NCBI GenBank assembly: GCA_038257355.1
Contig: JBBSJK010000004.1
Span: forward strand, 8,637 to 72,636
DNA from: Pyrinomonadales bacterium
Lineage (GTDB): Bacteria; Acidobacteriota; Blastocatellia; Pyrinomonadales; Pyrinomonadaceae
DNA: 64,000 nt
Reading direction: 5' to 3'
Shown here: positions 9,513 to 16,771 of the stretch, one piece after another
Layout of the letters: each line of letters opens with the position of its first letter
How positions within the stretch are numbered: position 1 is the stretch's first letter
Notes under the pieces: generated by a model
Databases searched by the model: none
Told to the model about the DNA's origin: nothing
The model's input: the letters and a program-made list of their open reading frames with translations, nothing else
Made by a program: the position numbers and the translations under genes

Positions 9513-11009
9513 ATGAATTTTCCGAGAGCAAGCGGTTTACTTTTACATCCAACATCTCTGTCAGGACGGTTTGGAGTCGGCGATTTTGGCGAAGAGGCAT
9601 TTAAGTTTATCGATTTTCTTGTGGACTCGGGACAAACTTACTGGCAAATCCTGCCGCTCAGTCCGACGGGACAAGGCAATTCCCCGTATTCGTCTTACTC
9701 CGCGTTTGCAGGAAATACCTTGCTGATATCGCCAGATAAGCTTTTTAATGAAGGTTTGATCGAGAAAGAATTTTTAAACGACTGTCACGGATTTGCAGAT
9801 AACAGTGTCAATTTTGGCAGAGTTATTGATTGGAAGAGCGGAATGCTCGCCCGGGCATTTGAAATTTTTCGCGCATTGCCCGCCGCACCGTTGGTGAGCG
9901 AATTTGAATATTTTTGCACGGCCAACGCCTGGTGGCTTGACGATTACGCCATATTTCGTGCAGTAAAAACGTCTAATGGCCAACAAGCTTGGTACAACTG
10001 GGCAGAGCCATTAAAATCTCGAGACACATCGGCAATCGAAACCGTAAAATCGCAACTGACTCGCGAAATTCAGGCTGAGAAATTTTACCAGTATCTCTTT
10101 TTCAAACAATGGCTGGCGGTCAGAAAATACGCGAACGGTAAAGGCGTAAAGATAATCGGCGACATACCCATATTTGTCGCGCTCGACTCAGCGGATGTTT
10201 GGTGTAACCAGAGCAAATTTAAGCTCGAATCGAATGGCTCCCCAACGGTCGCCGCAGGTGTTCCGCCGGATTATTTCTCTAAGACAGGCCAGCTTTGGGG
10301 CAATCCCATCTACGACTGGGAGGCTATGAGCGCGGACAATTTTGACTGGTGGACTGCCCGCGTTTCCTTTACGTTAATGACGGTCGATGTCATCCGGCTT
10401 GATCACTTTATAGGTTTTGCACGAAATTGGGAGATTCCGGGCGGGGATAAGACCGCCGAGAACGGCCGCTGGGTCGATGTGCCCGGCGAAAAACTATTCT
10501 CCGTGCTAAAGCAGCGTCTCGGTGAGCTGCCGGTCATCGCCGAGGATCTCGGGTCGATGACACCCGCGGTCGAGCTTTTGCGAGACACCAACGGATTTCC
10601 CGGAATGCGGATTTTGCAGTACGCCTTTGGCGGCGACGCAAATAACCAGGAGCTGCCGCATAATTTTATCAAAAACTCGGTAGCATATACCGGCACTCAC
10701 GACAACAACACAACTGTCGGCTGGTATAGATCAGCCGCAAAAAACGCCCGTTCTCATTGCCGCGAATATCTAAAATCAAATGGCCGCGAAATACATTGGG
10801 ACATGATACGTTCTCAGCAAGCTTCGGTTGCGGACACCGCAATTATGCCTGTACAAGACATCCTGGGCCTCGGCAGCGTCGCTCGTATGAACACACCCGC
10901 GACCTCAACTGGCAACTGGGAATGGCGGCTTTCGAGTGGGGCACTCACTGTCGAGATTGCCTCCCGGCTGAGGCGAATGACCGATATTTATGGCCGGACA
11001 AATCAGTAA
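9513..11009 (+). CDS. malQ: 4-alpha-glucanotransferase (amylomaltase)
   Basis: 'MNFPRASGLLLHPTSLSGRFGVGDFG', 'WGNPIYDW', 'DHFIGF' and 'YTGTHDNNT' motifs. The ATG at 9513 is preferred over the upstream ORF start at 9474. Confidence 0.9.
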   Translation: MNFPRASGLLLHPTSLSGRFGVGDFGEEAFKFIDFLVDSGQTYWQILPLSPTGQGNSPYSSYSAFAGNTLLISPDKLFNEGLIEKEFLNDCHGFADNSVNFGRVIDWKSGMLARAFEIFRALPAAPLVSEFEYFCTANAWWLDDYAIFRAVKTSNGQQAWYNWAEPLKSRDTSAIETVKSQLTREIQAEKFYQYLFFKQWLAVRKYANGKGVKIIGDIPIFVALDSADVWCNQSKFKLESNGSPTVAAGVPPDYFSKTGQLWGNPIYDWEAMSADNFDWWTARVSFTLMTVDVIRLDHFIGFARNWEIPGGDKTAENGRWVDVPGEKLFSVLKQRLGELPVIAEDLGSMTPAVELLRDTNGFPGMRILQYAFGGDANNQELPHNFIKNSVAYTGTHDNNTTVGWYRSAAKNARSHCREYLKSNGREIHWDMIRSQQASVADTAIMPVQDILGLGSVARMNTPATSTGNWEWRLSSGALTVEIASRLRRMTDIYGRTNQ

Positions 11010-11185
11010 ATTTTCACAATGTGAAAAGAAACGCACCGTCGCCGTTATTGTTTGCAGCAGCGGCAGAAATTAAATGCTGCCCAGCCGAGTCGTGACTAAC
11101 ATCTGCAATTACTTGACTTACCAGCCGATTTCGCGTAAAACTTTAGCAGTTTCAGCAAACAAATAGTAAGGTAAATTGTCGGGGT

Positions 11186-11986
11186 ATGGCATCTAATCTG
11201 GTTTCGATTCAACGGCGGGGTTTTGGTCAGACGATGCGGAAAGACGCCTGGTGGGTCGCTCCGCTGCTCACATTTATCGTTCTCGGGGCATTTGTTGTTT
11301 ATTCGACGTGGGCTGCGTTTCAGGGCGAGCATTACGCATTTGGCAATTATCTGTCACCATTCTACTCGCCTGAGATTTTTGGCACTACGTCGCACGCCCT
11401 ATTCGGCCCGCCGCCCGCGTGGCTGCCTTCGTGGCTGCCGTTTTCGCCCGCTTTCCTGATTCTGTGGGCTCCGGGCGGATTTCGGTTTACGTGCTACTAC
11501 TATCGCGGCGCCTACTACAAAGCAATGTGGGCCGACCCGATCGCCTGCGCCGTCGGCGAACCCCGCAAAGGCTATCGCGGCGAAAACTGGTTCCCGCTTA
11601 TTCTGCAAAATATCCATCGCTATTTTCTATATATCGCGATCTTATTTCTTTTCTTCCTGGCATATGACGCTTGGAATGCGATGTGGTTTCTCGGTCCCGA
11701 CGGCAAACAGCATTTCGGTATTGGTGTTGGAACGCTTGTGCTGACCGCAAACGTCGTCTGCCTCGGACTCTACACATTTAGCTGCCATTCTCTACGGCAT
11801 CTCGTCGGCGGAGCGTGGGATGTCTTGTCAAACAAACCGATCCGCAAAAAGGCGTACGGCTGTGTCAGCGGCTTGAATAAACGGCATATGCTATTTGCTT
11901 GGATCAGTTTGTTTGTAGTCGGCTTTTCGGATATCTACGTGCGAATGTGCTCGATGGGCGTGATTATAGATTATCGCTTTTTCTGA
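11186..11986 (+). CDS. Succinate dehydrogenase membrane anchor (single large polytopic subunit, mycobacterial Sdh1/Rv0249c-like)
   Basis: 266-aa polytopic membrane protein immediately upstream of sdhA/sdhB. 'WWVAPLLTF...YLSPFYSP' resembles anchors of actinobacterial Sdh1-type operons, from memory. Confidence 0.7.
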   Translation: MASNLVSIQRRGFGQTMRKDAWWVAPLLTFIVLGAFVVYSTWAAFQGEHYAFGNYLSPFYSPEIFGTTSHALFGPPPAWLPSWLPFSPAFLILWAPGGFRFTCYYYRGAYYKAMWADPIACAVGEPRKGYRGENWFPLILQNIHRYFLYIAILFLFFLAYDAWNAMWFLGPDGKQHFGIGVGTLVLTANVVCLGLYTFSCHSLRHLVGGAWDVLSNKPIRKKAYGCVSGLNKRHMLFAWISLFVVGFSDIYVRMCSMGVIIDYRFF

Positions 11987-12330
11987 TGAATACTGCTGCT
12001 CGACATATTCGGCTCCAGGGATTCACGCGGGTCGGTCGGCACGAAATGATCGCTCGACTGAGAGACGCATTCCAGGATGGCCATGCGGACTTGATCGACT
12101 TTCAGATGTTTTCGAACGCCGCGATCAATTTTAGTTTTGAAATCGCCGGCTATCACCTGGCCGAACTTGGAAAAGCTCTGGCGGCTACGCAGATTAGTTT
12201 AAATAAGGAAAGCGTAGCGTCAATGACGAAAAACGGAGAATCAGATGAGATCGTCAACGGAAGTTTGAACGTAACCTTTATACACAGTGACCCGGATCTG
12301 CGAATCCCAGTTCCGCCGATACCTGGATGA
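11986..12330 (+). CDS. Small soluble hypothetical protein embedded in the sdh operon (ACT/ferredoxin-like pattern guessed)
   Basis: The ATG shares 1 nt with the anchor stop (TGATG). The ORF ends 7 nt before the sdhA ATG. It encodes 114 aa with no TM segment and an alternating beta-alpha-beta-like hydrophobicity pattern. Confidence 0.5.
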   Translation: MNTAARHIRLQGFTRVGRHEMIARLRDAFQDGHADLIDFQMFSNAAINFSFEIAGYHLAELGKALAATQISLNKESVASMTKNGESDEIVNGSLNVTFIHSDPDLRIPVPPIPG

Positions 12331-12337
12331 TTTATTG

Positions 12338-14149
12338 ATGGCTGAATACCCAACATTTGAACACGACGTTCTCGTTATCGGTGCCGGTGGTGCCGGGCTT
12401 CGCGCGGCTATTGAGGCATCAGGAGCCGGCGTCTCTGTCGGACTGATCTGCAAATCTTTGCTCGGCAAGGCACATACCGTCATGGCTGAGGGCGGGATGG
12501 CGGCGGCGATGGGCCACAACGACGATCGCGACAACTGGAAGGTCCATTTTTCCGATACCATGCGCGGCGGCCAGTACGTTAATAACTGGCGAATGGCGGA
12601 ACTGCATGCCAAAGAGGCTCCGGATCGCGTTCGCGAACTCGAGGGCTGGGGAGCGGTGTTCGACCGAACGGCGGATGGCCGCATCAATCAGCGCAACTTC
12701 GGCGGCCATCGCTATCCGCGGCTCGCTCACGTCGGCGACCGCACCGGATTGGAGCTCATCCGCACGCTCCAGGACCACGGTATCCATCAGGGCATTGAGG
12801 TTTACATGGAGGTCACCGTGCTTTCTCTATTGAAAGACGGAGACCGCGTGGTCGGTTGTCTGGCGTACGAGCGTGAACATGGGCGTTTTCGTGTATTCAA
12901 ATGCAAAGCTCTTATTCTCGCGACTGGCGGTATCGGTCGAGCTTACAAGATTACATCCAATAGTTGGGAAGGCACGGGCGATGGCCACGCTCTCGCCTAC
13001 GACGCCGGAGCCGAGCTGATCGATATGGAATTTATCCAGTTCCATCCGACCGGCATGGTCTGGCCGCCGAGCGTTCGCGGGATCTTGGTGACCGAGGGCG
13101 TTCGCGGCGAGGGCGGCATCTTGCGTAACAGCGAGGGCAAACGCTTTATGTTTGACGACATCCCGGCCAACTACAAAGATCAAACTGCCGACAACGAAGA
13201 AGAGGGCTGGCGATACGTCACCGGCGATAAAAATGCTCGTCGCCCGCCAGAACTTCTAACACGCGATCACGTCGCTCGCTGCATTATGCGCGAGGTCAAG
13301 GCCGGACGCGGTTCACCGCATGGCGGAGTTTATCTCGACATCGCCTGGATCACAGAAAAAATCAAAGACGCACCGGAGCACATCAAGAAAAAGCTGCCGT
13401 CGATGTATCACCAGTTCAAGCAGCTCGCAAACCTCGACATCACGACAACTCCGATGGAGGTCGGGCCGACAACACATTATGTGATGGGCGGAATTCGCGT
13501 GGATGCTGATACGCAGGCTTCGACAGTTCCCGGTTTATTTGCCGCCGGTGAGTGTGCGGCGGGGATCAACGGTGCAAATCGGCTCGGCGGCAACTCACTC
13601 TCCGATCTGATTGTCTTTGGCAAACGGGCAGGTGAGTACGCGGCTCAATTCGCAAAAGAAAACGATCACGGCACGATCAACGATGATGCCGTTGCTACGA
13701 CCGCAAAATCAGCCCTCGAACCTTTCGACCGGGAAGGCGGCGAGAATCCATACACTATCCAGCACGACCTACAGGAATTAATGCAGGCAAATGTCGGCAT
13801 TGTCCGCACGCAGGACGAGATGATCGAGGCACTGAACGGACTCGATGTACTAAGAAACAGGTCGGCCCGCACTTTCGTCCCCGGCAACATAGATTTTAAC
13901 CCCGGATGGCACACGGCGCTCGATCTGCACAATTTGCTTGTAGTCTCAGAGGCCATCGCCCGAGCTGCCATAGAACGCAAAGAAAGCCGCGGCGGACACT
14001 TTCGGGAGGATTTCCCGGATAAAGACCCCGAGTTTGCAAAGTTCAATTACTCGCTCAAAAAAGGCGGCGGCGGTGGAATGGAAATATCCAGGTTGCCGAT
14101 TCCCGATATGCCCGATTATTTAAAGGACGTTATTGCGGAAATGGGATAA
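12338..14149 (+). CDS. sdhA: Succinate dehydrogenase/fumarate reductase flavoprotein subunit
   Basis: 'DVLVIGAGGAGLRAA' FAD fold, plus 'HPTG', 'GECAAGINGANRLGGNSL' and 'ESRGGHFRED'. Confidence 0.93.
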   Translation: MAEYPTFEHDVLVIGAGGAGLRAAIEASGAGVSVGLICKSLLGKAHTVMAEGGMAAAMGHNDDRDNWKVHFSDTMRGGQYVNNWRMAELHAKEAPDRVRELEGWGAVFDRTADGRINQRNFGGHRYPRLAHVGDRTGLELIRTLQDHGIHQGIEVYMEVTVLSLLKDGDRVVGCLAYEREHGRFRVFKCKALILATGGIGRAYKITSNSWEGTGDGHALAYDAGAELIDMEFIQFHPTGMVWPPSVRGILVTEGVRGEGGILRNSEGKRFMFDDIPANYKDQTADNEEEGWRYVTGDKNARRPPELLTRDHVARCIMREVKAGRGSPHGGVYLDIAWITEKIKDAPEHIKKKLPSMYHQFKQLANLDITTTPMEVGPTTHYVMGGIRVDADTQASTVPGLFAAGECAAGINGANRLGGNSLSDLIVFGKRAGEYAAQFAKENDHGTINDDAVATTAKSALEPFDREGGENPYTIQHDLQELMQANVGIVRTQDEMIEALNGLDVLRNRSARTFVPGNIDFNPGWHTALDLHNLLVVSEAIARAAIERKESRGGHFREDFPDKDPEFAKFNYSLKKGGGGGMEISRLPIPDMPDYLKDVIAEMG

Positions 14150-14183
14150 CGGATTGTCTCGATATTCGTGTCATAATTCACTT

Positions 14184-14411
14184 ATGAAGGTAATAAATAT
14201 CGACAAAGAAATTTTGGGAGGAACTCCAGTCTTTGATGGAACTCGGGTGCCGATACGCAACCTGTTCGATTATCTTGAGACAGGCGAAACGATAGACGAA
14301 TTTATGAATGACTTCCCATCAGTCCGACGCGAACAGATATTGAAACTGCTCAAGTTTTCTGAGCAAATCACCCTTCGATCGAGCGAGATTGTCCATGAGA
14401 ATTTTGCTTGA
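14184..14411 (+). CDS. DUF433 domain protein (putative antitoxin)
   Basis: 75 aa. 'ILGGTPVFDGTRVPIRNLFDYLETGETIDEFMNDFPSV' matches the DUF433 signature. It overlaps the next ORF by 17 nt. Confidence 0.8.
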   Translation: MKVINIDKEILGGTPVFDGTRVPIRNLFDYLETGETIDEFMNDFPSVRREQILKLLKFSEQITLRSSEIVHENFA

Positions 14412-14745
14412 CGAGTGCGTGACAAAGAAACTGAAGAGACACCTGGTTGAATTCGAGGTCAGAACTGTTGTCGAAATGGGCTGGAGCGGTTACCGGAATG
14501 GCAACTTATTAAATGCGGCGGTCGAAGAGCACTTTGACCTGCTCCTAACTATCGACAAGAACATGGTCTATCAACAGAATATGAACGAGTACGATATCGC
14601 CGTTGTGGTGTTCGACACCGGGCGGAGCAAGATCGACATACTCATAAAATTTCTCCCAGAATTCAAATCCCGAATGCACGAGTTTTCGAAAGGACGGATA
14701 TCGCTGGTTGAGACAACTGATATGGAATCAAATTTGGAGCATTAG
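14395..14745 (+). CDS. DUF5615/Mut7-C-like PIN-fold protein (putative toxin)
   Basis: 'MRILLDECV...' N-terminus and 'DLLLTIDKNM' are typical of DUF5615 partners of DUF433. An alternative ATG lies at 14389. Confidence 0.8.
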   Translation: MRILLDECVTKKLKRHLVEFEVRTVVEMGWSGYRNGNLLNAAVEEHFDLLLTIDKNMVYQQNMNEYDIAVVVFDTGRSKIDILIKFLPEFKSRMHEFSKGRISLVETTDMESNLEH

Positions 14746-14757
14746 GAACTGTGAGCA

Positions 14758-15501
14758 ATGGCACAAGCAACATTTAGCATAAGGCGCGGCGGGCGGGAGA
14801 CAGCGGAGATGGTCGACTATCGGACTGAGGTGACCGAGGGGATGGTCGTGCTCGACGCGGTTCATCAGATACAGGCCGAGTCGGCGGGCGATTTGGCTTG
14901 CCGATGGAACTGCAAGGCCGGTAAATGCGGCTCGTGTTCGGCCGAGATCAATGGCAAACCGCAGCTGATGTGTATGACTCGGCTCGATACGATCCCGCTC
15001 GATCAGCCGGTTACGATCGAGCCGATGCGGGCATTTCCGCCGGTCAAGGATCTAATTACAGACGTTTCTTGGAATTACGAAGTAAAAAAACGCATCAAGA
15101 AATTCAAGCCGCGAGCACCCGACGCCGAGGACGGCACCTGGCGGATGCAGCAAGAGGACATCGACCGCGTACAGGAATTTCGAAAGTGTATCGAATGTTT
15201 TCTGTGTCAGGATGTCTGCCACGTGCTTCGCGACCATGAGAAGCACGCCGAGTTTATCGGCCCGCGATTCCTGGTTTATGCTGCGGCCCTCGAGATGCAC
15301 CCGCTGGACACCGAGGATCGCACCGCTGAGCTAAAAGACCTGCACGGCATCGGATACTGCAATATTACAAAATGTTGTACAAAAGTTTGCCCAGAGGGGA
15401 TTACGATTACGGATAATGCTATTATTCCGCTCAAGGAACGTGTCGTTGACCAGCATTACGATCCGATCGGAAAACTGGTAAAATTGTTTCGGAAAAAGTG
15501 A
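14758..15501 (+). CDS. sdhB: Succinate dehydrogenase/fumarate reductase iron-sulfur subunit
   Basis: Cys clusters 'CRWNCKAGKCGSCSAEING', 'CIECFLCQDVC' and 'CNITKCCTKVCPEG'. Confidence 0.93.
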   Translation: MAQATFSIRRGGRETAEMVDYRTEVTEGMVVLDAVHQIQAESAGDLACRWNCKAGKCGSCSAEINGKPQLMCMTRLDTIPLDQPVTIEPMRAFPPVKDLITDVSWNYEVKKRIKKFKPRAPDAEDGTWRMQQEDIDRVQEFRKCIECFLCQDVCHVLRDHEKHAEFIGPRFLVYAAALEMHPLDTEDRTAELKDLHGIGYCNITKCCTKVCPEGITITDNAIIPLKERVVDQHYDPIGKLVKLFRKK

Positions 15502-15508
15502 TTCAAGA

Positions 15509-15526
15509 GCGGGCATCTATGCCCGC
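15509..15526 (+). terminator. GC-rich hairpin after sdhB
   Basis: 'gcgggcat ct atgcccgc' is a perfect inverted repeat 8 nt after the stop. No T-run follows. Confidence 0.4.
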
Positions 15527-15571
15527 GTGTGGAAAGATTAGCAGGATTGAAGCCTACGCTCTGGCAAAAAG

Positions 15572-16051
15572 ATGTTCGAGCTAAAATCATTATCTGTCGA
15601 AGCTGTACCGGCCGCTCTTGAAAAGGCCAACCGATATCGTCTGCTCAACGAACCGGGTGCGGCGGAGAGCATCTATCTCGACATCCTGGCCATCGAGCCG
15701 GACAATCAGGAAGCTCTCAGGAATATTGTGCTTGCTATGAGCGACCGTTTTTGCAAGGACTACGCGATCGGCGATGCTCGCATTACTGAGTACGTGACCC
15801 GCATCAAAAGCGATTACGAGCGAACATACTACACCGGCATTATGTACGAGCGACGTGCCAAGGCCGAACTGGCAAAAGGCGGCGTCGGTGCGTACGAGCT
15901 ATTTCGGCAGGCGATGGGCTGTTTTGAAACCGCCGAAGCGATGCGGCCCGCCGGGAAAGATGATGCGATTTTGCGTTGGAACGGCTGCGTTCGGATCATC
16001 AAACGCAACAATCTCGGCCCGCGCGATGCTCCATCTGATTTTCTTGAGTAG
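15572..16051 (+). CDS. Hypothetical protein (helical/TPR-like)
   Basis: 159-aa ORF with plausible composition. I recognise no diagnostic motif. Confidence 0.55.
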   Translation: MFELKSLSVEAVPAALEKANRYRLLNEPGAAESIYLDILAIEPDNQEALRNIVLAMSDRFCKDYAIGDARITEYVTRIKSDYERTYYTGIMYERRAKAELAKGGVGAYELFRQAMGCFETAEAMRPAGKDDAILRWNGCVRIIKRNNLGPRDAPSDFLE

Positions 16052-16142
16052 TAAGTTGCAATCACCTAAAATTTAATTATTTATCGTTAGTTAGCAGTTA
16101 TTTAGAGTCGCATTAATACAAAATATTTGGAGTATATAAACT

Positions 16143-16472
16143 ATGGCGGGAAAATTTGAATTAAAAGTCGCAAAAAACGGAAAATATCATTTTAATCTCT
16201 TGGCAGGAAACGGACAGATTATCTTGTCCAGTGAAATGTACGAGTCGAAATCGGCTGCTGAAAGCGGCATTGCCTCGGTTCAGAAAAACGCTGCGGACGA
16301 CAGTCGCTATTCGCGGAATACATCCGCAAAAGGCGACCCCTATTTTACGTTAAAGGCTGGAAATAATCAGGTTATTGGCCAAAGTGAAATGTACTCATCA
16401 GCCTCATCGATGGAAAACGGCATCGAATCCGTTAAAAAGAACGCTCCGGACGCGGCGACCGTCGAAGTTTAG
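16143..16472 (+). CDS. YegP-family protein (two DUF1508 repeats)
   Basis: Duplicated 'G(N)GQ(I/V)I..SEMY.S..(A/S)...GI.SV.KNA' modules. Confidence 0.85.
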   Translation: MAGKFELKVAKNGKYHFNLLAGNGQIILSSEMYESKSAAESGIASVQKNAADDSRYSRNTSAKGDPYFTLKAGNNQVIGQSEMYSSASSMENGIESVKKNAPDAATVEV

Positions 16473-16771
16473 CATTTTGATCAAACGCAAAGGCCGCTCC
16501 CGTTCCTAAAATGGATAGACGGCTTTTTGACTGATTACTGCAATTTAAAATATTGGAAATTCGGGCAGCAGGGCAACCGTCTGGTTCCTCTACGCCCGGA
16601 GTGCTTTGAGCCGTTGCCGCTCACTGCATCCCATAGCACACGACGCACTCTTCAACGTTGTATTGGGAAAGGTGACTCAACTTTCAGACGACCTCTTTTT
16701 TGTTGAGTTAAACGTGAAATAAATACATTTTCACCACCAACATTTATCAAGGCTGTCTTAATTCATCTCCT

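What the first reader, a model, noticed from the sequence alone, without database searches (positions are those of the whole stretch)
14184..14745. DUF433/DUF5615 toxin-antitoxin-like pair wedged between sdhA and sdhB
sdhA ends at 14149 and sdhB starts at 14758. The interval is filled by two same-strand, 17-nt-overlapping small ORFs with only 34-nt and 12-nt spacers. They must therefore ride on the complex II transcript. ORF1 carries the DUF433 signature ('GGTPVFDGTRVPI...ETGETIDEFMNDFPSV'). ORF2 begins 'MRILLDECV' and has 'DLLLTIDKNM', like DUF5615/Mut7-C PIN-fold proteins. This pairing is a predicted type II TA family. The flavoprotein and iron-sulfur subunit genes are normally adjacent. An addiction-type RNase module embedded in, and co-expressed with, a core respiratory operon is unusual. 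It could couple toxin dosage to TCA/respiratory expression.
Basis: partly seen in the sequence, partly recalled or inferred. Interest (0 to 1): 0.62.

Follow-up and report, generated by a model that had tools for sequence, protein, structure and literature searches.

The report
Toxin-antitoxin pair inside succinate dehydrogenase operon
A small two-gene toxin-antitoxin module of a known family really does sit between the two main genes of a succinate dehydrogenase operon in this soil acidobacterium, but it is a long-lived selfish lodger in a gap that holds other small cassettes in related species, not a part of the enzyme.

Summary
ORF1 (14184-14411) is a DUF433 protein. ORF2 (14395-14745) is a DUF5615/COG4634 PIN-like protein that keeps every invariant residue of its family. 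They overlap by 17 nt and fill the sdhA-sdhB gap.

A complex model passes its controls (0.78 against 0.32). It places the antitoxin's invariant GTRVP loop on the toxin's conserved acidic pocket.

I measured this gap in 124 genomes (123 of the same genus). It is a slot:
- 75 hold only a strong hairpin.
- 26 hold a PD-(D/E)XK (PDDEXK_3) gene, usually inside such a hairpin.
- 7 hold other single genes.
- 10 are directly coupled.
- 6 hold this toxin-antitoxin (TA) pair: three intact, two frameshifted, one internally deleted.

Further sdh-embedded copies occur in other Pyrinomonadaceae genera. Both TA genes are under purifying selection (dN/dS about 0.04 and 0.1). The cassette tree conflicts with the flanking sdh tree, so cassettes seem to have been exchanged at this one site.

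A conserved TGnCATAAT motif lies just before the antitoxin start. It suggests the cassette has its own promoter, in addition to operon read-through.

The operon is the second of two complex II loci, and many congeners lack it. This scan found a similar slot (nuoE-nuoF) on other DNA. Verdict: a new member of a known TA family in a notable but not unique setting.

The parts
11186..11986 (+). Putative membrane anchor gene of the Sdh1-like complex II operon (266 aa, hydrophobic)
   Evidence: ORF. No Pfam or NCBIfam hit. Assigned only by its position upstream of sdhA and by the same 254-266 aa gene in related loci. Inferred.
11986..12330 (+). 114-aa ORF of unknown family in the anchor-sdhA gap, a second variable slot of the operon
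   Evidence: No Pfam hit. In relatives this gap instead holds HigB toxin plus two small genes (L021) or a 23S_rRNA_IVP gene (L022).
12287..14149 (+). sdhA, flavoprotein subunit (the likely true start is the ATG at 12338)
   Evidence: NF005866 at 979.6 bits. Pfam FAD_binding_2 and Succ_DH_flav_C.
14169..14177 (+). TGTCATAAT, an extended -10-like motif. Its hexamer CATAAT ends 6 nt before the antitoxin ATG, so it is a candidate promoter for a leaderless or near-leaderless cassette transcript
   Evidence: Sequence. The motif TG.CATA[AC]T sits at the same offset in 10-11 of 13 sdh-embedded copies from several genera, while the rest of the leader varies. Function is inferred.
14184..14411 (+). Antitoxin gene, DUF433 (COG2442), 75 aa
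   Evidence: Pfam 63.3 bits. It is 54-93% identical to 28 relatives, with invariant TPVF.GTRVP..NLFDY (A2). dN/dS median 0.04 among sdh-embedded copies.
14395..14745 (+). Toxin gene, DUF5615/COG4634 (Mut7-C group PIN-like), 116 aa. It overlaps the antitoxin by 17 nt
   Evidence: Pfam 24.0 bits and 299 homologues. All family-invariant residues are kept: D6 E7 C8 T10 G32 N35 G36 I53 D54 K55 N56 Q60 S78 (A1). AF2 pLDDT 91.4. dN/dS median about 0.1.
14746..14757 (+). 12-nt trailer with a weak Shine-Dalgarno-like GGA/GAG before sdhB
   Evidence: Sequence. Other carriers have GAGGAG or GGAG here, and in two of them the toxin stop is lost so the toxin ORF overlaps the sdhB start.
14758..15501 (+). 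sdhB, iron-sulfur subunit
   Evidence: NF009052 at 402 bits. Pfam Fer2_3 and Fer4_8.

Best explanation
This is a type II, VapBC-like toxin-antitoxin cassette. The antitoxin is a DUF433 protein and the toxin is a DUF5615/COG4634 PIN-like protein. It lives as a selfish lodger in the sdhA-sdhB gap of an accessory, Sdh1-like complex II operon of a Pyrinomonadaceae bacterium.

Inferred mechanism:
- The two genes are translated as a coupled pair through the 17-nt overlap, which is conserved across the family.
- The antitoxin's invariant GTRVP loop covers the toxin's conserved acidic pocket (D6/E7/D54) and neutralises a presumed RNase.
- The cassette is transcribed by operon read-through and probably also from its own extended -10-type promoter just before the antitoxin start.

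Shown here:
- The gap is a permissive slot. In congeners it holds a long hairpin, hairpin-bracketed PD-(D/E)XK genes, or other single genes.
- This TA lineage has occupied the slot long enough for synonymous sites to saturate.
- It is kept by purifying selection in some lineages and has decayed by frameshift or deletion in others.

Suggested by tree conflict: the cassette has been exchanged between species at this same site, most simply by homologous recombination through the conserved sdh flanks.

Its link to sdh therefore comes from insertion-site tolerance, not from a role in the enzyme.
For: Identity:
- Pfam and homologues.
- All family invariants are retained.
- A confident fold, pLDDT 91.4.
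- The complex model scores 0.78 against a best control of 0.32. That mark was reached by 58 of 80 solved complexes and 2 of 110 mismatched pairs. The runs agree in at least 95% of contacts and partner pLDDT is at least 85. The interface covers toxin residues 6-8, 10-12, 31-36, 54, 56-57, 60 and 76-79, and antitoxin residues 19-23. The tool's alignments were my own, so those counts hold only roughly.
- Literature: the PIN-COG2442 pair VapBC10 of Synechocystis is a working TA (PMC3834315). COG4634 is classed as a Mut7-C-group PIN-like potential toxin (PMC5499597).

Slot:
- Census of 124 spacers: 75 short or hairpin, 26 PDDEXK_3, 10 coupled, 7 other inserts, 6 TA.
- The short spacers have a median MFE of -37.5 kcal/mol and a median z of -6.4.

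Age and selection:
- Every toxin relative of 60% identity or more that I could place lies between sdhA and sdhB, except one displaced copy in G114. None at 59% or less does.
- The junctions are the same in four genus copies.
- NG86 dN/dS medians are 0.04 (antitoxin) and 0.105 (toxin), against 0.058 for sdhB and 0.09 for the sdhA tail. pS is mostly 0.7-0.9.

Decay:
- Toxin frameshifts in G186 and G023.
- An internal deletion in G140 and a toxin truncation in L173.

Exchange:
- The TA state needs at least 4 changes on the sdh tree.
- The flanks reject monophyly of the carriers (AU p 0.0003 and 0.001).
- The cassette tree rejects G136+G023 as sisters (p 7e-9), although their flanks are sisters at 100 support.
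- Cassette identity exceeds flank identity for own against G141.

Own promoter: the conserved TGnCATAAT motif.

Paralogues: about six DUF433/DUF5615 pairs occur in this genome, several with broken toxins.
Against: - There is no expression data. No RNA run holds the region. Co-transcription, the internal promoter and leaderless translation are all inferred.
- Toxicity and neutralisation are untested.
- Structure searches did not recover a PIN fold. They returned only generic flavodoxin-like or receiver-like matches (Foldseek E of 0.037 or worse; VIA Z of 7.3 or less). 'PIN-like RNase' therefore rests on Pfam and the literature.
- The Pfam score for the toxin is barely over its cut-off.
- Long retention at one site under purifying selection is also what a co-opted function would produce.
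- G023's odd position in the cassette tree could partly reflect faster evolution after its toxin broke.
- No flanking repeats or duplicated gene end mark how the cassette first entered.
Confidence: 0.72

Rival explanations
1. Co-opted operon part. The pair, or the antitoxin alone acting as a DNA-binding protein, has been domesticated to tune complex II. It could supply an internal promoter for sdhB, cleave the polycistronic mRNA to set the SdhA:SdhB ratio, or tie growth arrest to respiratory state.
For: - The pair is retained at one site across several genera, with dN/dS of 0.04-0.1 and saturated synonymous sites.
- A conserved promoter-like motif would also drive sdhB.
- In two lineages the toxin stop is lost and the toxin ORF overlaps the sdhB start.
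Against: - Only 6 of 124 measured spacers carry it, and three of the six are broken or deleted.
- The sister lineage of this genome has only a hairpin in the gap.
- Unrelated cassettes occupy the same gap elsewhere.
- Paralogous pairs lie in unrelated places in this genome.
Confidence: 0.12
2. Stabiliser of an accessory operon. By post-segregational killing, the embedded TA penalises deletions that remove the dispensable second complex II operon, as proposed for TA cassettes in superintegrons and genomic islands.
For: - The operon is accessory. A second complex II exists on C7.
- This sdhB type was not found in 36 of 110 high-quality congeners.
- The TA sits in the middle of the operon.
Against: - Most species keep the operon without any TA.
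- With only six carriers, no test of loss rates is possible.
- This benefit falls on the cassette rather than the host. It does not exclude the selfish reading; it is a version of it.
Confidence: 0.08
3. Inactive relic. The pair in this genome is no longer toxic, and its open frames persist only because too little time has passed for them to decay.
For: - Sibling copies in this genome (C48, C38, C32) and two slot copies in congeners have broken toxins.
- The Pfam score of the toxin is marginal.
Against: - All 13 family-invariant toxin residues are intact.
- dN/dS for intact slot copies is about 0.1 over saturated synonymous divergence.
- The complex model is confident.
Confidence: 0.08

Closest known systems
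VapBC10 (ssr2962/slr1767) of Synechocystis sp. PCC 6803, a PIN-COG2442 type II TA (PMC3834315)
   Same: A DUF433/COG2442 antitoxin is encoded first and a small PIN-superfamily toxin second, as a co-transcribed bicistron. Toxin growth arrest and rescue by complex formation were shown experimentally for VapBC10.
   Different: VapC10 is a canonical PIN protein, whereas the toxin here is of the reduced COG4634/DUF5615 (Mut7-C) group. VapBC10 is a free-standing locus, not inside another operon. Nothing has been tested for the present pair.
COG4634/DUF5615 'potential toxins' and DUF433-PIN_10 pairs such as M. tuberculosis VapBC45 (PMC5499597; predicted in PMC2701414)
   Same: The same Pfam families and gene order. 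The 17-nt overlap and the antitoxin C-terminus ...ENFA overlapping the toxin start M(K/R)ILLDEC recur in relatives from Bacteroidota, Ignavibacteria and others.
   Different: The sdh-embedded lineage has a toxin tail about 9 residues longer (...ESNLEH). It carries a sigma-70-type TGnCATAAT motif, whereas Bacteroidota relatives carry TAnnTTTG.
TA cassette slot between nuoE and nuoF in a planctomycete
   Same: A DUF433/DUF5615 pair lies inside a respiratory-complex operon. Relatives hold related modules in the same slot, but not all of them do. It is read as a long-lived home for selfish cassettes.
   Different: A different operon and phylum. That note is an unchecked AI report which I did not re-test. 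Here the slot also holds hairpins and PDDEXK_3 cassettes, and the cassette tree conflicts with the flank tree.
23S rRNA intervening sequences: stem-bracketed inserts that often carry a 23S_rRNA_IVP ORF
   Same: In congeners the same sdhA-sdhB gap holds a small gene (PDDEXK_3) in the loop of a long stem. In this genome, IVP genes are bracketed by inverted arms made of tandem short words.
   Different: The TA pair itself is not bracketed by inverted repeats. The hosts are mRNA operon spacers, not rRNA. Excision by RNase III is unknown here.

Membership tests
Type II TA, DUF433(COG2442)-PIN-like (VapBC-like) | Two small adjacent same-strand genes, antitoxin first, overlapping or tightly spaced | tested here: met
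   14184-14411 and 14395-14745 overlap by 17 nt. The same overlap occurs in relatives.
Type II TA, DUF433(COG2442)-PIN-like (VapBC-like) | The upstream protein belongs to DUF433 | tested here: met
   PF04255 at 63.3 bits against a cut-off of 23.6.
Type II TA, DUF433(COG2442)-PIN-like (VapBC-like) | The downstream protein belongs to DUF5615/COG4634 | tested here: met
   PF18480 at 24.0 bits against a cut-off of 23.8, which is marginal. It has 299 homologues at E <= 1e-3, many with PF18480 or named DUF5615 PIN-like.
Type II TA, DUF433(COG2442)-PIN-like (VapBC-like) | The toxin keeps the conserved acidic residues of its family | tested here: met
   D6, E7, D54 and 10 further invariant positions are present (A1).
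Type II TA, DUF433(COG2442)-PIN-like (VapBC-like) | The toxin has a PIN-like fold | tested here: inconclusive
   The model is confident. The searches gave only generic three-layer alpha/beta matches: Foldseek best E 0.037 and VIA best Z 7.3. The literature states that no structure had been solved for the Mut7-C group.
Type II TA, DUF433(COG2442)-PIN-like (VapBC-like) | The antitoxin binds the toxin directly | tested here: met
   In silico only. ipSAE is 0.78 against a best control of 0.32. That mark was reached by 58 of 80 solved and 2 of 110 mismatched pairs. Contacts agree at 95% or more and partner pLDDT is 85 or more.
Type II TA, DUF433(COG2442)-PIN-like (VapBC-like) | The toxin arrests growth and the antitoxin rescues it | not testable with these tools
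   This needs expression assays.
Complex II accessory subunit or assembly factor | Co-occurs with the sdh genes across the taxon | tested here: not met
   It is present in 6 of 124 measured spacers, and three of the six are broken.
Hairpin-bracketed (IVS-like) cassette | The gene lies between long complementary arms | tested here: not met
   No such arms surround 14184-14745. In G023 a complete hairpin lies upstream of the pair, not around it. By contrast, 21 of 24 PDDEXK_3 cassettes have arms with z < -3.
Insertion with long duplication of the upstream gene end | A second copy of the 3' end of the upstream gene lies after the cassette | tested here: not met
   Local alignment of the sdhA tail against the cassette end gave z 5.6 only in this genome and z <= 1 in four other carriers. 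The paralogous pair on contig C52 does show a direct repeat of about 70 nt of the upstream gene end.
Known anti-phage defence system (PADLOC) | Matches a PADLOC model | tested here: not met
   No hit for either protein at E <= 0.01.

The most novel reading that the evidence does not exclude
The spacers of this operon, and of others such as clpP-clpX, recF-gyrB and the second sdh locus, are defined landing slots in Pyrinomonadaceae. Small selfish genes (TA pairs, PD-(D/E)XK genes, IVS-type four-helix proteins) are captured in or beside long tandem-word hairpins. They are then swapped between species by recombination through the conserved flanking genes. The TA lineage in the sdh slot has become site-locked across genera and contributes an internal promoter to sdhB. 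This would be an integrase-free, operon-internal cassette system that works somewhat like a one-slot integron.
Probability: 0.25. Interest if true: 0.65.

Novelty: new member of a known kind. Interest (0 to 1): 0.42.

Why it matters
The pair itself is an ordinary member of a widespread TA family that has been little tested. Three aspects of its setting are worth keeping.

1. It gives a clean natural series for the life cycle of a chromosomal TA module at one fixed address: intact, frameshifted, internally deleted and empty, across more than 100 species.
2. It shows that a gap inside a respiratory operon can host selfish genes for a very long time without breaking the operon. That bears on how packed genomes tolerate and exchange such modules without any recombinase.
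3. The neighbouring states of the same gap, genes sitting in the loops of long hairpins, resemble rRNA intervening sequences but lie in mRNA. I did not find this described in the open literature searched.

If the cassette promoter is real, it would also be a rare case of a selfish element feeding transcription into a host gene downstream.

Tried and rejected
- RNA evidence: the look-up of sequencing runs listed no RNA holder. Only DNA runs were listed: a soil metagenome with 0.91 of the words, a salt lake metagenome with 0.37 and a microbial mat metagenome with 0.07. I did not lay the reads, so expression stays open.
- Structure searches: Foldseek against PDB and VIA wide gave only generic receiver-like or flavodoxin-like matches. 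Profile searches of PDB sequences found nothing relevant for either protein.
- PADLOC: no hit. NCBIfam: no model for either small protein.
- Rfam: no hit in 10500-16500.
- Promoter and terminator scan: it found no strong site near the cassette. Two weak promoter-like sites inside the toxin ORF (14552-14580 and 14633-14662) are within chance expectation. The scan requires a -35 box, so it would miss an extended -10 promoter.
- Flanking repeats: I looked for direct or inverted repeats and for a duplicated sdhA end, and found nothing consistent.
- Leader as hairpin remnant: I first read the leader 'ATTCGTGTCATAATTCAC' as a decayed right arm of the CACGAAT-type hairpin. TGnCATAAT is conserved in other genera whose hairpins use different words, so the promoter reading is more likely. 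Both could be true.
- Literature: a search for a TA between sdhA and sdhB found nothing relevant.
- A first dN/dS script timed out. I replaced it with my own Nei-Gojobori code.
- Several genus hits with long open frames are not at recF-gyrB. Only G149 shares that slot.

Full report
**What is there**

On the + strand of the window, sdhA ends at 14149 and sdhB starts at 14758. Between them lie two ORFs: ATG 14184 to TGA 14411 (75 aa) and ATG 14395 to TAG 14745 (116 aa). They overlap by 17 nt and are separated from sdhA and sdhB by 34 nt and 12 nt.
- ORF1 is a clear DUF433 protein (63.3 bits).
- ORF2 only just passes the DUF5615 threshold (24.0 against 23.8 bits). However, a search of 5.8 billion proteins returned 299 relatives, many carrying PF18480 or named 'DUF5615 family PIN-like protein'.
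- The flanking genes are a fumarate reductase/succinate dehydrogenase flavoprotein of type NF005866 and an iron-sulfur subunit of type NF009052.
- The insert has about 0.44-0.46 G+C, against 0.55 in the flanks.

**Is it a toxin-antitoxin pair?**

An alignment of 25 toxin relatives has 13 invariant positions: D6 E7 C8 T10 G32 N35 G36 I53 D54 K55 N56 Q60 S78, plus the start M1 and L4, L5. The window's protein has all of them. The antitoxin family is unusually conserved, at 54-93% identity across phyla, with invariant TPVF.GTRVP..NLFDY. Its last codons (...ENFA) overlap the toxin start M(K/R)ILLDEC in nearly all relatives, so the 17-nt overlap is a family trait.

AlphaFold gives a confident toxin model: pLDDT 91.4, with a five-stranded alpha/beta sandwich.

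The complex test passed.
- The score was 0.78 against a best control of 0.32.
- That mark was reached by 58 of 80 solved complexes and 2 of 110 mismatched pairs.
- The three runs agree in at least 95% of contacts, and partner pLDDT is at least 85. I supplied my own alignments, so those counts hold only roughly.
- The modelled interface puts antitoxin residues 19-23 (GTRVP) against toxin residues 6-8, 31-36 and 54. These are exactly the invariant positions. That is what neutralisation by blocking an active site would look like.

Structure searches did not return PIN proteins. They returned only generic receiver-like folds. The 'PIN-like RNase' label therefore rests on Pfam and on the published classification of COG4634 as a reduced Mut7-C-group PIN domain without a solved structure (PMC5499597). 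A PIN-COG2442 pair, Synechocystis VapBC10, has been shown experimentally to be a TA (PMC3834315). Toxicity here is untested.

**Is it part of complex II?**

No. I fetched the sdhA-sdhB junction from the genomes of the same GTDB genus that carry this sdhB (132 of 191) and measured 124 spacers, one of them from another family as outgroup. The states were:
- 10 directly coupled (31 nt or less).
- 75 short (53-230 nt).
- 26 with a PDDEXK_3 ('GxxExxY') gene (Pfam 132-136 bits).
- 7 with other single genes.
- 6 with this TA pair.

A member of another family carries a 23S_rRNA_IVP gene in the same gap.

Of the six TA copies:
- Three are intact: this genome, G141 and G136.
- Two have a frameshifted toxin: G186 and G023.
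- One (G140) is an internal deletion that fuses the antitoxin's first 60 or so codons to the toxin's last three codons.

The genome's nearest neighbour on the sdh tree (G095) has only a hairpin in the gap.

The operon is also not the only complex II. A second locus lies on contig C7: sdhC 225 aa, sdhA 628 aa, sdhB 266 aa. The Sdh1-like sdhB was not found in 36 of 110 high-quality congeners at E <= 1e-100.

**How old is it, and how does it move?**

Every toxin relative of 60% identity or more that I could place lies between sdhA and sdhB, with one exception. These include metagenome contigs and MAGs titled Pyrinomonadaceae or Pyrinomonadales whose sdhB is only about 70% identical, which places them in other genera. 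One further such MAG, L236, is titled Actinomycetota in its record. The exception is G114, where a copy of the same lineage with a frameshifted toxin sits elsewhere, next to a Uma2-like gene. Relatives at 59% identity or less, mostly Bacteroidota, are never sdh-flanked.

Four genus copies share the same junctions. Among intact slot copies, Nei-Gojobori dN/dS has these medians:
- 0.04 for the antitoxin.
- 0.105 for the toxin.
- 0.058 for sdhB.
- 0.09 for the sdhA tail.

Synonymous differences are mostly saturated, with pS 0.7-0.9. The pair is therefore old at this address and is kept by selection where it is intact.

Its history is not simply vertical.
- The TA state needs at least four changes on the sdh tree.
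- The flanks reject a clade of the carriers (AU p 0.0003 for four carriers and 0.001 for six).
- The cassette tree puts this genome, L173, G141, G186 and G136 in one tight, well-supported group (96/98).
- The cassette tree rejects G136+G023 as sisters (p 7e-9), although their flanks are sisters at 100 support.
- For this genome against G141, cassette dS is 0.48-0.64 while sdhB dS is 1.66. Identity rises from about 0.7 in the sdhA tail to 0.86-0.94 inside the cassette.

The simplest reading is that cassettes are exchanged between species at this one site through the conserved sdh flanks, together with repeated loss. One caveat applies: G023's copy is a pseudogene and may simply have evolved faster.

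**Expression**

No terminator-like site separates sdhA, the cassette and sdhB. sdhB has only 12 nt in front of it, so read-through from the operon promoter is the natural expectation.

All but two or three of 13 sdh-embedded copies, including those from other genera, also carry TG.CATA[AC]T ending 6-8 nt before the antitoxin start. The rest of the leader differs between them. In the window this motif is TGTCATAAT at 14169-14177. It matches the extended -10 consensus TGnTATAAT at eight of nine positions, and a start site there would give a leaderless or nearly leaderless message. Bacteroidota relatives instead show TAnnTTTG, the promoter word typical of that phylum, at a similar distance (the assignment of that word is from my own knowledge).

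So the cassette probably brings its own promoter, as TA modules usually do. If so, it also feeds transcription into sdhB. This is inference. No RNA data set holds the region.

**The slot itself**

The 75 short spacers are dominated by long, near-perfect hairpins. The median MFE is -37.5 kcal/mol and the median z is -6.4 against shuffles, and 87% have z < -3. Many arms are built from three tandem words of about 9 nt (..CACGAAT.. in some species and other words in others). About ten such hairpins occur elsewhere in this genome. In 21 of 24 PDDEXK_3 cassettes, the leader and trailer are complementary at z < -3. The gene therefore sits in the loop of such a hairpin.

The TA pair is different. It has no flanking inverted or direct repeats and no consistent duplicate of the sdhA end. 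In G023 a complete hairpin lies upstream of it.

**Comparison with the known, and verdict**

The pair is a new member of the DUF433-COG4634/DUF5615 branch of VapBC-like type II TA systems. No PADLOC defence model matches either protein. A placement inside a respiratory operon has been noted once before by this scan, on other DNA (nuoE-nuoF; note e1-4086562). I did not re-test that note.

What this case adds is a dense comparative series at one address and evidence for exchange at that address. It also shows that the same gap hosts hairpin-bracketed genes in sister species. I rate the finding as real and correctly identified, but its proposed physiological meaning is unsupported. It is of moderate interest.

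Noticed in passing
L004, L008-L010, L012, L020 and 20 further loci (sdhA-sdhB spacers of congeners): In 26 of 124 genomes the sdhA-sdhB gap holds a 125-159 aa PDDEXK_3 ('GxxExxY') gene. In 21 of 24 tested, its leader and trailer are complementary arms made of tandem CACGAA-type words, so the gene sits in the loop of a long hairpin. This resembles an rRNA intervening sequence, but it lies in an mRNA operon.
   Followed up: partly
75 short sdhA-sdhB spacers of congeners (e.g. L002, L088, L091): These spacers hold near-perfect 20-30 bp hairpins with no following T-run. The median MFE is -37.5 kcal/mol and the median z is -6.4. At least two sequence families exist: AT-rich tandem-word arms and GC-rich GGAACGC... 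arms. Their role is unknown; it could be mRNA processing, mRNA stability or a REP-like element.
   Followed up: partly
G000 contig C88:1579-1995 (locus L297), minus strand: A 23S_rRNA_IVP gene (126 bits) sits between what read as clpP and clpX. It is bracketed by inverted arms of tandem TTGTCAG / CTGACAA words. Two other IVP genes (C123, C18) have arms built from other words.
   Followed up: partly
G000 contig C7:54456-54777 (locus L295): The genome's second complex II operon also has a gap of about 320 nt between sdhA and sdhB. It holds a 61-aa ORF with a weak match to the N-terminus of Uma2 endonucleases (E 0.0078, below the cut-off). This may be a relic of another lodger.
   Followed up: partly
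G000 contig C38:20819-21300 (locus L296), minus strand: A decayed DUF433/DUF5615 pair, with an in-frame TAA in the toxin, lies between recF and gyrB. G149 has a pair in the same place (L053).
   Followed up: partly
G000 contig C52:21771-22404: Another DUF433/DUF5615 pair, of a different subfamily, is flanked by a direct repeat of about 70 nt of the 3' end of the upstream 623-aa gene. This is the 'duplicated gene end' footprint that earlier notes of this scan describe.
   Followed up: no
window 11986-12330; L021:825-1931; L022:1468-1950: The gap between the membrane anchor gene and sdhA is variable too. It holds an unassigned 114-aa ORF here, HigB toxin plus two small genes in G136, and a 23S_rRNA_IVP gene in a metagenome relative. 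Relatives also have an extra 94-98 aa gene after sdhB that is absent here.
   Followed up: partly
L172:280-625: In one metagenome contig, a second orphan DUF433 gene of another subfamily lies between sdhA and the slot's TA pair. Cassettes can therefore pile up in tandem in the slot.
   Followed up: no
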